From positions 944,499 through 976,498 of the forward strand of contig JAWAHN010000001.1 of assembly GCA_038889235.1 (NCBI GenBank): DNA of 32,000 nt. The letters run 5' to 3'. Position 1 is the stretch's first letter. Each line of letters begins with the position of its first letter. Below, piece by piece: positions 6,295 to 11,196 of this stretch. The position numbers and the translations under genes were made by a program. The notes under the pieces are model-generated. The model saw only the letters and a list, made by a program, of their open reading frames with translations, did not search any database and had not been told where the DNA came from. The stretch comes from Candidatus Jordarchaeales archaeon. GTDB taxonomy: Archaea; Asgardarchaeota; Jordiarchaeia; Jordiarchaeales; Freyrarchaeaceae.

Positions 6295-6497
6295 TTTGTA
6301 CGCCCTCTCGATTCCCCAAACCATCCCTAAAAATTTTTGACCAATACGCTAAATTCAGGTAATATTTTGAATATCATAACTCTTTCTTTTTAATAATTTT
6401 TACGCAAATTTCGGAATAATCTTAACGAGCAAGAAAATCAAAAGTAAAATGATTGGAAGTATTTGGTGCGGGGGGTGGGATTTGAACCCACGAACGC

Positions 6498-6513
6498 GTG
6501 CGCCCATACTGGT
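6498..6513 (-). other. tRNA intron 3 (16 nt, variable arm)
   Basis: ACCAGTATGGGCGCAC. Helix GCGT/GCGC, bulges AG|A and AC|G, inner stem CCA/TGG. Confidence 0.8.
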
Positions 6514-6543
6514 CTACGCGATGGGCTCCTGAGGCCCACCCCT

Positions 6544-6559
6544 ATGGTCATCCACGCCT
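6544..6559 (-). other. tRNA intron 2 (16 nt, position 21/22)
   Basis: AGGCGTGGATGACCAT. Helix GGTC/GACC, bulges AA|A and AT|A. Confidence 0.75.
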
Positions 6560-6564
6560 TTGAC

Positions 6565-6582
6565 TTTGCCTGCAGGACGCAT
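6565..6582 (-). other. tRNA intron 1 (18 nt, position 18/19)
   Basis: ATGCGTCCTGCAGGCAAA. Helix AGCC/GGCA (3 of 4 paired), bulges AG|A and AA|G, inner stem TGC/GCA. Confidence 0.8.
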
Positions 6583-6620
6583 CTGGCTTGGGTACCCCCG
6601 CCCAACAATCAAAATTCCAT

Positions 6621-8024
6621 TCATTTGGGTCTATTCGTGCAAACATTTTCCACTATATACTCTGCAATCTGCTCGGCTTTTTGTTTAAGTTTTTCTGTTA
6701 TGTACCCTTTAATAAATGCTTCTTCGAGCGCGTTCTTGTCTATGATTCTTAGAGTTCCGTCAGGAAGCTGCACAACGTCAATTTCTAGGTCCACATATCT
6801 TATTTTTCCAGGGTAAATTTCTATTGGGGTGTTTATGTTGTGAAATGCGCCCTTGAACTCCCCGTTTTTAGAGTAATATTCTGTTCTGAAGAACCACTCG
6901 CCTACCCTAACTCTAGTTATGCCGTAATCTCCTTCCTCTTTCGGAACGTTCAGTCCGTCATAATATCCCCCCTCAGTGAAGCTTCTCTTTACAACTATCT
7001 CCTGATCGTCCTTGTTTTGCAGTATTTTTCCGTGAAGAAACAATACTTTACCGTCAAGTTTTATGTGCTCAAAGCGCACTTTGCTCCCGTTTTTTAAAGA
7101 ATCGCTGATAGTCATTTTTTGAAGCGTTTCTTTGATCTCACTTCGCAGCTCTGGATGCTTTGAAATAAGATTTTCAGCAAAATCGACTAGAAGTGCAACA
7201 TCGCTCCCCAGTGACTTGTAGAAGTGGTGCCCGTCTATTGTTGGCGTAACGCTCCCTCTTATTTCGTCCAGTTGTTTTTTTGCGCTTGCGGGGAACTCAG
7301 CGATAACGGTTTCGTCGCCTTCCCTAATAAGTGTCGGCTCGTCTACGTTCTCTGAAAGAGAAATTATTTTCTTCAATTCTTCCCCTATTTCTTCTACTTC
7401 TTTTGTAATAAGTGAAAGGTCCGCTTTCCCCGCCGCCGTCCTGAAGATTATGCCTACCCCAGCAGGTTTCATTTTGTTACCAATCCGGTAGAGCACATTG
7501 CGTATATCTCTATCTTTAATTTTATTGCTCACCCCTACATGTCCACTGGAAGTCAGCACCACGTACTTTCCAGCAATAGCTATCTCCCCAGTCGCCTGTG
7601 GTCGCGGATCCACTTCACATATCCTTAGAAGCTGTATTTCCCCTTCTTCTTTACAGCTCCCCTTCACAGGAAGCTTCAGACATCCTATATCAGCGATTGC
7701 TCTATCTCCACGCTTACCAATTATGCGGCCAACATAGATGGCGTTTAAGTTGACTTTAGCTTTACGGATAATGACGTCTTCTAATTCCTCTCTAATTATG
7801 TTGACGACCCTTTCCAAGGGTTTTTTCTCACCTGTTATGACCACTCCCTGCCTGTTCTTTGTGTCGAAAACTTCTACATCTGGAGGTTCCATTGTCCTCT
7901 CGATTTTCAGCCTTTCAGCCAACACCGATGAACTTTGGGTGATCGATAAGCCATGTTTTAGGAAAAGCTTAGAGAGCGCCGTAGTATAGATTCCTCTAAC
8001 TCTAACCTGAATTTTTTCTTCCAA
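6621..8024 (-). CDS. fau-1: FAU-1-like RNA-binding protein / ribonuclease (RNase E/G-like N-terminus plus DUF402 C-terminus)
   Basis: N-terminal VRVRGIYTTAL, GHHFYK, C-terminal YHNINTP-like FHNINTPIEIYP..IRYVDLEIDVV. TTG 8024 follows GAGGTG. Confidence 0.85.
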   Translation of the reverse strand: MEEKIQVRVRGIYTTALSKLFLKHGLSITQSSSVLAERLKIERTMEPPDVEVFDTKNRQGVVITGEKKPLERVVNIIREELEDVIIRKAKVNLNAIYVGRIIGKRGDRAIADIGCLKLPVKGSCKEEGEIQLLRICEVDPRPQATGEIAIAGKYVVLTSSGHVGVSNKIKDRDIRNVLYRIGNKMKPAGVGIIFRTAAGKADLSLITKEVEEIGEELKKIISLSENVDEPTLIREGDETVIAEFPASAKKQLDEIRGSVTPTIDGHHFYKSLGSDVALLVDFAENLISKHPELRSEIKETLQKMTISDSLKNGSKVRFEHIKLDGKVLFLHGKILQNKDDQEIVVKRSFTEGGYYDGLNVPKEEGDYGITRVRVGEWFFRTEYYSKNGEFKGAFHNINTPIEIYPGKIRYVDLEIDVVQLPDGTLRIIDKNALEEAFIKGYITEKLKQKAEQIAEYIVENVCTNRPK

Positions 8025-8129
8025 TGCAAAACACCTCTTATCACGTCGTCTTAAAAGAAAAGAAGGTAACACCGGGGATAATTGCTTGATTAAACCAGCT
8101 AAGGTTCTTTTCTTTTCGTTATCCTTCAC

Positions 8130-8586: not shown

Positions 8587-8937
8587 GTGAACCCTTTGGA
8601 GTCTGAAAATTTACAGAAAATGGTTGACATGTTAAGGCGAGGGGCCACGCTCCTCTCTAAAGCTTGCCCTGCCTGCAGCTCCCCCTTGTTTAAGATAGGC
8701 GGGAAAATATGGTGTCCGACTTGTGAGAAGCAAGTTGTTGTTGTTAAAGAGGGGGAGCCTCTGCCGTCGGAGTTGAGCAGCCTGCTACTTTCAAGTCTAG
8801 CTAACACGATTTACGAGAAGCTCAGAGAGGTTGAAGGTCGCATTAAGGGAGCTGAAGATGTAGGCGAGCTGCAGGAGGCATTAAGGCTTGCAGTAGGCTT
8901 GCTAGAGGTTTTGGAAAGAATAAAGCGGTTAACATGA
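8587..8937 (+). CDS. UPF0148 / autoantigen-p27-like Zn-ribbon protein
   Basis: MLRRGATLLSKACPACSSPLF....IWCPTC. Divergent from UPF0147. Confidence 0.8.
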   Translation: MNPLESENLQKMVDMLRRGATLLSKACPACSSPLFKIGGKIWCPTCEKQVVVVKEGEPLPSELSSLLLSSLANTIYEKLREVEGRIKGAEDVGELQEALRLAVGLLEVLERIKRLT

Positions 8938-11196
8938 GTCCTCTCCACGGTACTCTGCGCGGAGAACTTCTTTTATCTTCTTAGCTTTCCTCTCTCCTAT
9001 GCCTTGGACGCTCATAAGCTCCTTTTCGTCGGCGGTATAAACGCGCTCCACGCTTTTAAATTTTTGAAGCAGTCTCTTAGCTAGAATGTAGTCTATGCCT
9101 GGCAAGGCAGCTACAATGTGTTCCTGCAACTCTTTTAATGTTGCAGGCTTCTTAACACCTATCCGTATTCCTTTCCTTCCCTCTTCTTTCTCCCTTCGTG
9201 CAATAGTCTTTATCACTTCAGCTGTCTCCTTGGCGTTTTGAGTCCAAAAGATAGGTATCTTAAAGTCAAGTGCTATGCTCACTAGTGCTCCTCTAATCGC
9301 TTCAGGGTTTACCCCTCTTCGCTCATACAAATTTCCTCCTTCTATTATTAACAGGGGTGACTCGTACGTTCTCGAGAGCTCGACTAGTTGCTTAAACAAT
9401 CGCTGGTCTATGATCGACTGAACGAAGTCAGCATCAGTCTTACGCTCTACACCGACCCTCTCCGAAATAACGTAGTCTCCCACGTCTAGCTTTGTCAGGA
9501 CAACTTCGACACCAAGCCTAGCTAGTTCCTGAACGACAGCGTTCCCTCCTTCCCTAACATCTGCGTATACAATCAACTTGTCTCCTCTCGGAATATACTC
9601 CTCCAGGCTAACTTGTTGGTTGACTCCTCTTCCGCCTTCTACATTAACTCTCTTTTTCTCCAAGCTCTTTATGATTCCGCGCATGTTCTCCTCCTTCCAC
9701 TTAACCGACCAATAATATTTCTCGTCCATGGTTCCCTTAGTGATAAGGAAGACCACTTTACCTGGCCTCCTTCTTCCCGTTCTTCCTTTTCTCTGTACGA
9801 ACCTCACCGCACTAGGGGTAATATCGTAGAAGACCACTAAATCGCACTCGCTGACATCAACGCCTTCTTCAGCCACACTGGTGGCAACCAGCACTTTGAA
9901 CTCCCCCCTCCTAAATTTTTCAATTACTTCCGCTTGCTGTTTTTGGGTAAGCCCCGAAGATCCCCCCCTCTTACCCTGACCAATTATTTTATCAGCGCTA
10001 ATTTCGTTCTCGCGGAGAGCTTTTAATAACTCGTTAACAGTACTTCTAAACTGCGTGAACACGATAACCCTAGACTCGGGCTTTCTACAAAGCTGGCTTC
10101 TAATTATGTTGATAAGAGCTCCTCTCTTGGGGTGTGTTACTCCGCGGGAAATCATGTTTTCCGTTTCTTTCTCAACAGAAAGAACTAAGGGGTCCTCGAG
10201 AATGTTTCTTAAACCCTTACCCCCCCTTAGCAGCGCCCTCTCCCTTAGTTGTTCAAAGTATTTTTTAAAAGCCTCAAGTCCTTGTGTTTCCAATATTTCG
10301 AGGGCGTGGGCGAGCCTTATAGCTCCGGAAACCGCTACCAAGCACGCGTAATCTTTTTCGTCCTTATTCTCTTTTCTCAAAAGGGTGCTTTGAATCTCTA
10401 TAAGTTCTTTTCTAGTCCATCTTTTCTTTCTCGCATTAACATAGCCTGCATCTTTTAAAACACTTAGATTTTTTCTAATAACCTCCTCCAACTTCTCCTT
10501 TATACGCAAAAACTCTTCCGGAAGCTTCACTTCGACCCATTCTACTTCAATCGTCTTAACGTAGGGTGCTACGTCGGGGCTTCTCTCCGTTCGCGCCTCC
10601 ACTTGCTTTATACCTAAAACCCTACAAATTTCTAATAATTTTTCTTTCTGAGACCCGGGAGATGCTGTGAGTCCTAATATAAGCGGCTTCCTTGCTCTTC
10701 TCATATATTCCTCAGCTATGAACGTGTAGGGGTAATCTCCCACGGCTCTATGTGCCTCATCGAAAACTAATAGAACCCAGTCTAGGCAGTTTACACGTCC
10801 TGCTATCAAATCATTCCTAACAACTTGTGGAGTTGCTAAGACAACTTTCGCCTCCAACCATATCCTTTCTCTCTCCCCTGGCGCGTTTTCCCCGGTGCAT
10901 ACCCTTATCTCATTTTCGGGTATATTCAGAGCTTTCTTGAAGGTCTCTGCGTGTTGGATGACAAGAGGCCTTGTAGGTGCTAAAACGACGACCTTCCCCC
11001 ATTCATACATCAACAGCCTTTCCGCCGCCACCATTATTGCAATAATCGTTTTACCTAATCCGGTCGGAAGCACCACTAGCGTGTTCCCTTTCAAAGCTTT
11101 AGAAACTATGTTCCTCTGATATTCCCTAAGCTCAATGCTTCCTTCCTTAATAAGAGGGTGTACCAGCATCCCTGGCCCGCTCAAAGGTCTACTCAT
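8929..11196 (-). CDS. hef: Hef: FANCM-like SF2 helicase fused to ERCC4/XPF nuclease and HhH
   Basis: REYQ, LPTGLGKT, DEAHR, QRKGRTGR, then GDYVI..VERK, RLFKQL and C-terminal HhH pair. Confidence 0.95.
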   Translation of the reverse strand: MSRPLSGPGMLVHPLIKEGSIELREYQRNIVSKALKGNTLVVLPTGLGKTIIAIMVAAERLLMYEWGKVVVLAPTRPLVIQHAETFKKALNIPENEIRVCTGENAPGERERIWLEAKVVLATPQVVRNDLIAGRVNCLDWVLLVFDEAHRAVGDYPYTFIAEEYMRRARKPLILGLTASPGSQKEKLLEICRVLGIKQVEARTERSPDVAPYVKTIEVEWVEVKLPEEFLRIKEKLEEVIRKNLSVLKDAGYVNARKKRWTRKELIEIQSTLLRKENKDEKDYACLVAVSGAIRLAHALEILETQGLEAFKKYFEQLRERALLRGGKGLRNILEDPLVLSVEKETENMISRGVTHPKRGALINIIRSQLCRKPESRVIVFTQFRSTVNELLKALRENEISADKIIGQGKRGGSSGLTQKQQAEVIEKFRRGEFKVLVATSVAEEGVDVSECDLVVFYDITPSAVRFVQRKGRTGRRRPGKVVFLITKGTMDEKYYWSVKWKEENMRGIIKSLEKKRVNVEGGRGVNQQVSLEEYIPRGDKLIVYADVREGGNAVVQELARLGVEVVLTKLDVGDYVISERVGVERKTDADFVQSIIDQRLFKQLVELSRTYESPLLIIEGGNLYERRGVNPEAIRGALVSIALDFKIPIFWTQNAKETAEVIKTIARREKEEGRKGIRIGVKKPATLKELQEHIVAALPGIDYILAKRLLQKFKSVERVYTADEKELMSVQGIGERKAKKIKEVLRAEYRGEDSC

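What the first reader, a model, noticed from the sequence alone, without database searches (positions are those of the whole stretch)
6464..6601. tRNA-Leu(CAG) with three introns, none at the canonical 37/38 site
Seen: a 138-nt gene resolves to a canonical 88-nt Leu tRNA only after removing inserts at 18/19 (18 nt), 21/22 (16 nt) and in the variable-arm loop (16 nt). Each has relaxed BHB/BHL geometry. Established: multi-intron tRNAs are characteristic of Thermoproteales such as Thermofilum and Pyrobaculum, and relaxed motifs need broad-specificity EndA types. Inference: notable in a PolD-encoding archaeon and likely missed or called a pseudogene by standard tRNA finders.
Basis: partly seen in the sequence, partly recalled or inferred. 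Interest (0 to 1): 0.75.

Follow-up and report, generated by a model that had tools for sequence, protein, structure and literature searches.

The report
Three-intron leucine tRNA gene
This is a real, conserved leucine tRNA gene cut into four pieces by three tiny introns at unusual positions; that is normal for its lineage (Jordarchaeia-type Asgard archaea), where heavily interrupted tRNA genes have been described since 2024.

Summary
On the minus strand, window 6601..6464 holds a 138-nt gene. Removing inserts of 18, 16 and 16 nt (D-loop 18/19, D-loop/stem 21/22, variable-arm loop) gives an 88-nt tRNA-Leu(CAG) that ARAGORN accepts. ARAGORN and the Rfam tRNA model both miss the unspliced gene.

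Three same-genus genomes carry the ortholog with the same junctions:
- Exons are 80-87/88 identical, with three compensatory pair swaps in the anticodon stem.
- Inserts diverge in sequence and length but keep the 4-bp central helix of the bulge-helix-bulge motif.
- Two congeners carry a fourth, T-loop intron.

Shuffled controls almost never yield a cloverleaf. The genome encodes a two-subunit EndA, whose catalytic subunit keeps the broad-specificity loop lysine, and RtcB. It is the only Leu(CAG) gene I found.

About 2.3 introns per tRNA gene are needed genome-wide. Earlier scan notes, which had already recorded tRNA-type introns elsewhere in this genome, call it Candidatus Jordarchaeum. An ESCRT-II domain and seven Ras-type GTPases support an Asgard origin.

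Heavily interrupted tRNA genes in this group are already reported (PMC11291895; bioRxiv 10.64898/2026.10.13.758758, up to five per gene). So this is a sound new member of a known kind. No RNA evidence of splicing was obtained.

The parts
6464..6601 (-). Whole tRNA-Leu(CAG) gene: 138 nt, four exons, three introns, CCA encoded
   Evidence: Orthologs in three congeners.
6583..6601 (-). Exon 1 (mature nt 1-18): acceptor 5' strand, U8, D-stem 5' strand, D-loop up to G18
   Evidence: Invariant in the four orthologs.
6565..6582 (-). Intron 1, 18 nt, at 18/19. The central helix is 3 of 4 pairs here (A.A mismatch) and 4 of 4 in the congeners. The inner helix has 3-4 bp. Bulges are AG|A and AA|G.
6560..6564 (-). 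Exon 2, a 5-nt micro-exon GUCAA (G19 to A21)
   Evidence: Invariant.
6544..6559 (-). Intron 2, 16 nt, at 21/22. Its central helix GGUC/GACC includes G18, so it is 4 of 4 pairs only after intron 1 is removed and 3 of 4 before. The inner part is essentially a loop (BHL-like). The same product results if the cut is slid up to 3 nt 3'-ward, but only this register gives the helix.
6514..6543 (-). Exon 3 (30 nt): D-stem 3' strand, nt 26, anticodon arm, and variable-arm 5' strand with the GUAG loop
   Evidence: Three compensatory pair swaps in the anticodon stem against the congeners.
6529..6531 (-). Anticodon CAG
6498..6513 (-). Intron 3, 16 nt, in the variable-arm loop just 3' of GUAG. The central helix is 4 of 4 pairs (one G.U) and the inner helix has 3 bp. 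Bulges are AG|A and AC|G.
6464..6497 (-). Exon 4 (34 nt): variable-arm 3' strand, T-arm, acceptor 3' strand, A73, and CCA at 6464-6466

Best explanation
Window 6601..6464 (minus strand) is the single-copy, functional gene for tRNA-Leu(CAG) of an Asgard archaeon of the Jordarchaeia type. It is transcribed as a precursor of at least 138 nt that carries three short EndA-type introns, at 18/19, at 21/22 and in the variable-arm loop. The genome's two-subunit (alpha-beta)2-type splicing endonuclease cuts inside the 3-nt bulges that flank each 4-bp central helix, and RtcB joins the exons. Introns 1 and 3 can be recognised in the primary transcript. Intron 2 uses G18 and G19-C20a as the exon strand of its central helix. 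G18 and G19 sit in the bulges of intron 1's motif, so intron 2 is probably removed after intron 1. The product is an 88-nt class II tRNA with the CCA already encoded. Shown here: the gene anatomy, its conservation, the motif geometry and the presence of the enzymes. Inferred: the cleavage itself, its order, and ligation.
For: The spliced sequence is a canonical Leu(CAG) tRNA. Among 300 shuffled controls, two gave any cloverleaf and none reached the observed score. Three same-genus genomes carry the gene with identical exon junctions and an 88-nt product.

Exons are 80-87/88 identical. Intron identity ranges from 42 to 100%, and intron lengths vary: 17-18, 15-17 and 15-19 nt.

On the four-way alignment, 99.3% of cells pair in the proposed cloverleaf plus BHB helices, against 40-48% when the partner is slid. 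There are three double-sided compensatory changes in the anticodon stem and six one-sided compatible changes in BHB helices.

The variable arm after splicing has the same form as that of the un-interrupted Leu(UAA) paralog. All five Leu isoacceptors are present once each, and no second CAG gene was found.

There are two EndA paralogs. One has the Tyr/His/Lys triad, and its closest solved relative is the A. pernix catalytic subunit (E 4e-47). The loop aligns so that Lys44 is kept. The other paralog lacks the His. The role of that loop and lysine in cutting non-canonical and BHL introns is documented in PMC3241643. RtcB is present.

The same architecture is the rule in this genome: 28 genes needed about 65 introns. 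It is also the rule in the published lineage.
Against: There is no RNA-level evidence. The one reads/contigs test covered only the 3' exon, which is shared with other Leu tRNAs, plus a contig from a relative, and it showed no spliced junction. The outer exon-exon helix is 0-1 bp for all three introns, so none is a strict hBHBh' motif. Intron 1 has only 3 of 4 central pairs in this genome. MFE folding does not reproduce the motifs, but it also fails on the mature tRNA, so it is uninformative. tRNAscan-SE and SPLITSX could not be run.
Confidence: 0.9

Rival explanations
1. The variable-arm insert is not removed. The gene would then have two introns and yield a tRNA with an unusually long, 30-nt variable arm.
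For: The exon strand CGCGU can also pair with ACGCG, which spans the 3' splice site. That would extend the variable stem to 5 bp (sequence). My cloverleaf check constrains the variable region only loosely, so several alternative cuts there pass it.
Against: The insert has a 4 of 4 central helix plus a 2-3-bp inner helix in all four species. Among species it changes by G.U/G-C switches and by full pair replacements in the inner helix. Its length varies from 15 to 19 nt. After removal, the arm has the N-NNN-GUAG-NNN form of the uninterrupted Leu(UAA) and Leu(CAA) genes. Leu(GAG) carries an insert at the same place, and Leu(UAG) appears to by eye, although the solver placed its cut elsewhere.
Confidence: 0.04
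2. It is a decaying pseudogene or an unspliceable relic. CUG would then be read by tRNA-Leu(UAG) or by a copy that was not assembled.
For: The A.A mismatch in the central helix of intron 1 is specific to this genome. The assembly is 95% complete, so a missing copy cannot be excluded. There is no expression evidence.
Against: The exon sequence is under clear purifying selection across four species, with compensatory stem changes. All conserved tRNA positions are intact. No other CAG gene was found. Most tRNA genes of the genome look the same.
Confidence: 0.04
3. It is a chance carve-out: with three free deletions, a tRNA-like sequence can be made from many GC-rich stretches.
For: With 6-8 permitted introns, my solver did carve false cloverleaves out of unrelated loci that ARAGORN rejects.
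Against: With three or fewer introns, none of 300 shuffles reached the observed score. The acceptor and T-arm alone already give a 26-bit Rfam tRNA hit. Orthologs have the same junctions.
Confidence: 0.01

Closest known systems
Heavily interrupted tRNA genes of the Asgard families Freyrarchaeaceae, Jordiarchaeaceae and Atabeyarchaeaceae (Valentin-Alvarado et al. 2024, PMC11291895; bioRxiv 10.64898/2026.10.13.758758)
   Same: The lineage appears to be the same. Both show multiple short non-canonical introns per gene, a D-arm concentration, failure of standard annotators, a two-paralog EndA, and species-level gain and loss. My rough count of 2.3 introns per gene matches their 2.0-2.4, and they report up to five in one gene.
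   Different: Nothing differs in kind. I could not check whether this particular gene is listed in their supplementary tables, because they are not held. Points specific to this gene are the 5-nt micro-exon, the overlap of the two D-loop motifs, and the A.A mismatch in this genome.
Multi-intron tRNA genes of Thermoproteales (Sugahara et al. 2007, 2008; Fujishima et al. 2010, as cited in PMC4033280 and PMC8450103)
   Same: Up to three BHB or relaxed-BHB introns at non-canonical positions. Neighbouring introns must be removed in order. They depend on an (alpha-beta)2 EndA.
   Different: The phylum differs: Asgard, which encodes PolD, against Crenarchaeota. The burden is higher here, about 2.3 per gene against 0.84 on average and 1.54 in P. 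calidifontis. Congeners carry four introns in this same gene, above the maximum of three quoted for Thermoproteales.
Aeropyrum pernix (alpha-beta)2 splicing endonuclease with the Crenarchaea-specific loop (PDB 3P1Z, 3AJV; PMC3241643)
   Same: The catalytic paralog of this genome aligns end to end (E 4e-47). It has the loop and the Lys44 equivalent, and a second, His-less paralog is present.
   Different: The second paralog is closer to M. kandleri and M. jannaschii EndA than to crenarchaeal beta subunits. Assembly state and substrate range are untested.

Membership tests
Archaeal class II tRNA-Leu | Cloverleaf with 7-bp acceptor, 3-4-bp D-stem, G18G19, 5-bp anticodon stem, U33, purine 37 and a T-arm with UUCRA | tested here: met
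   Met after in-silico splicing: ARAGORN calls tRNA-Leu over 1-88, and my cloverleaf check agrees.
Archaeal class II tRNA-Leu | Leucine anticodon, long variable arm and discriminator A73 | tested here: met
   Anticodon CAG, a 14-nt variable region with a 3-bp stem and GUAG loop, and A73. The other four Leu genes of the genome have the same arm form.
Archaeal class II tRNA-Leu | Expressed, spliced and aminoacylated | tested here: inconclusive
   Laying the reads gave no informative coverage.
EndA-spliced (BHB-type) archaeal tRNA intron | A 4-bp central helix between exon nt -6..-3 and intron nt -6..-3 | tested here: met
   Intron 1 has 3 of 4 pairs in this genome and 4 of 4 in three congeners. 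Intron 2 has 4 of 4 after removal of intron 1. Intron 3 has 4 of 4.
EndA-spliced (BHB-type) archaeal tRNA intron | Two 3-nt bulges, each closed by a flanking helix (strict hBHBh') | tested here: not met
   The outer exon helix is 0-1 bp for all three introns. An inner helix is present for introns 1 and 3 and nearly absent for intron 2. These are therefore relaxed HBh'/BHL forms, not the strict motif.
EndA-spliced (BHB-type) archaeal tRNA intron | Cleaved by EndA at the predicted phosphodiesters | not testable with these tools
   This needs an in vitro cleavage assay or tRNA-seq.
(alpha-beta)2 broad-specificity EndA | Two distinct paralogs, one catalytic (Tyr/His/Lys) and one structural | tested here: met
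   G000 C1:1056164-1056754 (196 aa) has the triad. The paralog in L011, 1477-2061 on the minus strand (195 aa), lacks the His.
(alpha-beta)2 broad-specificity EndA | Specific loop with the conserved Lys (A. pernix K44) in the catalytic subunit | tested here: met
   In the alignment to 3P1Z_B, GQPLGIRKPK aligns with GQPLDVEKPR. The role of the lysine is described in PMC3241643.
(alpha-beta)2 broad-specificity EndA | Heterotetramer assembly and cleavage of BHL substrates | not tested
   No complex prediction or assay was done.

The most novel reading that the evidence does not exclude
The 5-nt micro-exon and the overlap of the two D-loop motifs impose a fixed splicing order, intron 1 before intron 2. 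G18 and G19 lie in the bulges of intron 1's motif, yet they form part of the central helix of intron 2's motif. The pre-tRNA would then pass through a defined intermediate. Together with the variable-arm intron, which sits next to the GUAG loop (a LeuRS identity element in haloarchaea, from my own knowledge), this would keep the precursor from being charged until all three cuts are made. That would amount to a built-in maturation checkpoint rather than neutral clutter.
Probability: 0.25. Interest if true: 0.4.

Novelty: new member of a known kind. Interest (0 to 1): 0.3.

Why it matters
It gives a cleanly resolved, comparatively supported example of a three-intron tRNA gene (four introns in sister species) in an Asgard archaeon, with exact junctions. 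Such examples are useful for correcting tRNA annotation in these genomes. ARAGORN finds 14 tRNA genes in this 2.1-Mb genome and Rfam finds 12, so codon-usage and completeness inferences based on tRNA counts would be wrong. It also provides a natural substrate series for testing the substrate range of Asgard EndA and the order of multi-intron splicing: the same gene with 3 or 4 introns, and a central helix of 3 of 4 or 4 of 4 pairs. It does not open a new question, because the phenomenon is already described for this lineage.

Tried and rejected
- **RNA evidence.** One metatranscriptome held as contigs and three held as raw reads were laid on 6420-6650. Two runs gave no reads. The others covered only the 3' exon, which is shared with other Leu tRNAs, plus a contig whose leader matches the G003 congener. 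The single 'joint' (6506 to 6578) joins the two stretches that G000 and that relative have in common, with unknown letters between. It is not a splice junction, so there is no verdict on expression or splicing.
- **Rfam weak hits.** The E-value search gave a 21.6-bit 'tmRNA' match and plastid UTR matches. They only reflect the tRNA-like acceptor and T-arm, so I rejected them.
- **MFE folding.** Folding of the precursors and intermediates fails even on the mature tRNA, so it is uninformative.
- **First taxon guess.** I first read the genome as Bathyarchaeia, because all named relatives of the neighbouring FAU-1-like protein were Bathyarchaeia at 36-38% identity. I dropped this after earlier scan notes and my own checks: seven full-length Ras-type GTPases, an ESCRT-II EAP30 domain above cut-off, and a gelsolin hit at threshold. 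The profilin search was void because its controls were silent. The protein atlas gave no usable taxon, and the encoding contigs gave no names.
- **First solver version.** It rewarded extra introns and carved false tRNAs with 6-8 'introns'. I replaced it with a parsimony scoring. Individual solutions in that survey are approximate, especially D-loops and class II arms.
- **Fewer introns.** My solver found no solution with fewer than three introns for this gene.

Full report
**What is there**

The gene lies on the minus strand, window 6601..6464, which is G000 C1:950962-951099. ARAGORN finds no tRNA anywhere in the 32-kb window. Rfam finds nothing at gathering score. A whole-genome run of the Rfam tRNA model gives a sub-threshold 26-bit hit on part of the gene, against a cut-off of 29.

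The inserts are precursor positions 20-37, 43-58 and 89-104, or window 6565-6582, 6544-6559 and 6498-6513. ARAGORN calls the product tRNA-Leu(CAG) over its whole length. It has G18G19 restored, a D-loop of the usual archaeal Leu form, a 5-bp anticodon stem, a 14-nt variable region, A73 and an encoded CCA.

**Is it more than chance?**

I wrote a solver that enumerates BHB-compatible deletions and scores the resulting cloverleaf. I then shuffled the interior 300 times, keeping the acceptor and T-arm. Two shuffles gave any cloverleaf with three or fewer introns, and none reached the observed score. When 6-8 deletions are allowed, the method does carve false tRNAs from unrelated loci, so the restriction to few introns matters.

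**Comparative evidence**

A search of 60 relatives found the ortholog in all three genomes of the same genus: L013:222-363:+, L014:1464-1619:- and L015:1464-1617:-. All give an 88-nt Leu(CAG) with the same junctions.

- Exons are 80-87/88 identical.
- Every exon difference specific to this genome lies in the anticodon-stem pairs 27:43, 28:42 and 31:39, and all three pairs are swapped compensatorily.
- The inserts differ in length (17-18, 15-17 and 15-19 nt) and are 42-100% identical.
- On the four-way alignment, the cloverleaf plus BHB helices pair in 99.3% of cells, against 40-48% with slid partners. There are three double-sided changes, six one-sided compatible changes in the intron helices, and one unpaired cell.

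Two congeners (G002, G003) carry a fourth, 19-nt intron in the T-loop at 58/59, with a 4 of 4 central helix. It is absent here and in G001.

The 18/19 intron is also present in Leu(GAG) of this genome and of a second genus of the family. With an exact-pattern search it was not found in six genomes of the sister family. Across 200 genomes of the phylum it gave one doubtful match outside the family, in G018.

**Motif geometry**

I used the register in which exon nt -6..-3 pair with intron nt -6..-3, and each cut lies between the second and third bulge nucleotide.

| Intron | Central helix | Inner helix | Bulges |
|---|---|---|---|
| 1 | 3 of 4 here (A.A); 4 of 4 in the congeners | 3-4 bp | AG\|A, AA\|G |
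| 2 | GGUC/GACC: 4 of 4 only once intron 1 is out, because its first pair uses G18; 3 of 4 before | almost none (BHL-like) | AA\|A, AU\|A |
| 3 | 4 of 4 | 3 bp | AG\|A, AC\|G |

G18 and G19 lie in the bulges of intron 1's motif, so the two D-loop motifs cannot form together. This implies ordered removal, which is already known for closely spaced archaeal tRNA introns (PMC8450103).

**Enzymes**

The genome has two EndA paralogs.

- One is 196 aa and has the Tyr/His/Lys triad. It is closest to the catalytic subunit of A. pernix EndA (3P1Z_B, E 4e-47). The alignment runs through the Crenarchaea-specific loop with the Lys44 equivalent kept. That loop and lysine confer cleavage of non-canonical and BHL introns (PMC3241643).
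- The other is 195 aa and lacks the His.

RtcB is present.

**Genome context**

ARAGORN finds 14 tRNAs in this 2.14-Mb, 95%-complete genome, and Rfam finds 12 above cut-off. My survey is limited to genes with an intact acceptor stem and T-stem. It resolved 28 genes whose spliced forms ARAGORN accepts, and they need about 65 introns under parsimony scoring. Several genes need four introns, for example tRNA-Phe(GAA) at C1:758710-758860. All five Leu isoacceptors are present once each. No second Leu(CAG) was found by BLAST, by the survey, or by a search for CAG anticodon arms.

**Which organism**

Named relatives of the neighbouring FAU-1-like protein were Bathyarchaeia, but only at 36-38% identity. 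Earlier notes of this scan call the genome Candidatus Jordarchaeum, an Asgard archaeon. I checked this indirectly:

- seven full-length Ras-family GTPases;
- an ESCRT-II EAP30 domain above cut-off that no control genome reaches;
- a gelsolin-domain hit at threshold;
- an intron load matching that published for the family.

I regard the assignment as likely but not proven here.

**What is known**

Reviews give three introns as the maximum for archaeal tRNA genes and name Thermoproteales as the intron-rich group (PMC4033280, PMC8450103). However, Valentin-Alvarado et al. 2024 report that 92-95% of tRNA genes in complete Atabeyarchaeia and Freyarchaeia genomes carry introns. Freyarchaeia is the group others call Jordarchaeia. 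The introns are often non-canonical, and more than half of the genes have several. A 2026 preprint reports 2.0-2.4 intervening sequences per gene in Freyrarchaeaceae and Jordiarchaeaceae, up to five in one gene, D-arm introns missed by tRNAscan-SE, repeated lineage-specific gains, and two EndA paralogs in most genomes. The present gene is a textbook instance of that description.

**RNA evidence**

The only test possible was inconclusive. Coverage was confined to the 3' exon shared with other Leu tRNAs, plus one contig from a G003-like relative.

**Verdict**

The observation and the mechanistic reading are correct and well supported by comparison. Splicing itself is inferred. The kind of feature is already described for this lineage, so novelty and interest are modest.

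Noticed in passing
L014:1464-1619 (minus) and L015:1464-1617 (minus): The orthologous Leu(CAG) genes of two congeners have four introns. The extra one is 19 nt, in the T-loop at 58/59, with a 4 of 4 central helix and a 3-4-bp inner helix. It is absent here and in G001, a clean presence/absence polymorphism within a genus. Reviews quote a maximum of three; the 2026 preprint reports up to five.
   Followed up: partly
G000 C1:758710-758860 (+), outside the window: tRNA-Phe(GAA) of this genome needs four introns (exons of 22, 8, 7, 22 and 17 nt) to give a canonical 73-nt tRNA. Met(CAU) at C1:907829-908038 and Ser(CGA) at C1:1018102-1018311 are 210 nt long and also need four or more.
   Followed up: partly
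whole genome G000: Only 14 tRNA genes (ARAGORN) or 12 (Rfam, at or above gathering score) are detected. My BHB-aware survey resolved 28 genes with about 65 introns, or 2.3 per gene. About 15 more expected tRNAs were not resolved, presumably because they have introns in the acceptor stem or T-stem, or no encoded CCA.
   Followed up: partly
G000 C6:391-468 (contig of 5.7 kb, 41.6% GC): The only intron-free tRNA found, Arg(CCG), sits on a small low-GC contig. It differs in sequence from the three-intron chromosomal Arg(CCG) at C1:487191-487347. This could be a mobile element, a virus or bin contamination.
   Followed up: no
window 6621-8129 (minus) and 8929-11196 (minus): The tRNA gene starts 19 nt after the stop of a FAU-1/RNase E-G-like gene (PF10150 + DUF402) on the same strand. 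A long-form Hef (helicase + ERCC4 + HhH) lies upstream. Two public assemblies break their contigs about 2 nt before the tRNA's 3' end (L042, L043), probably because the 3' exon is repeated among Leu genes.
   Followed up: no
G000 C1:729095-729221 (-), C1:727461-727600 (+); L023:1501-1624 (minus): Leu(GAG) has introns at 18/19 and 3' of the variable-arm GUAG, the same two sites as Leu(CAG). The 18/19 introns of both end in GGC(U/A)AA. A Leu(UAG) insert at the variable-arm site is my reading by eye; the solver placed that cut elsewhere. This suggests either inheritance from a common ancestor gene or copying between isoacceptors.
   Followed up: partly
window 6463-6816 (+): A 117-aa open frame runs antisense across the tRNA gene and the end of the FAU-1-like gene. 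It is almost certainly spurious, but a gene caller could pick it up in place of the missed tRNA.
   Followed up: no
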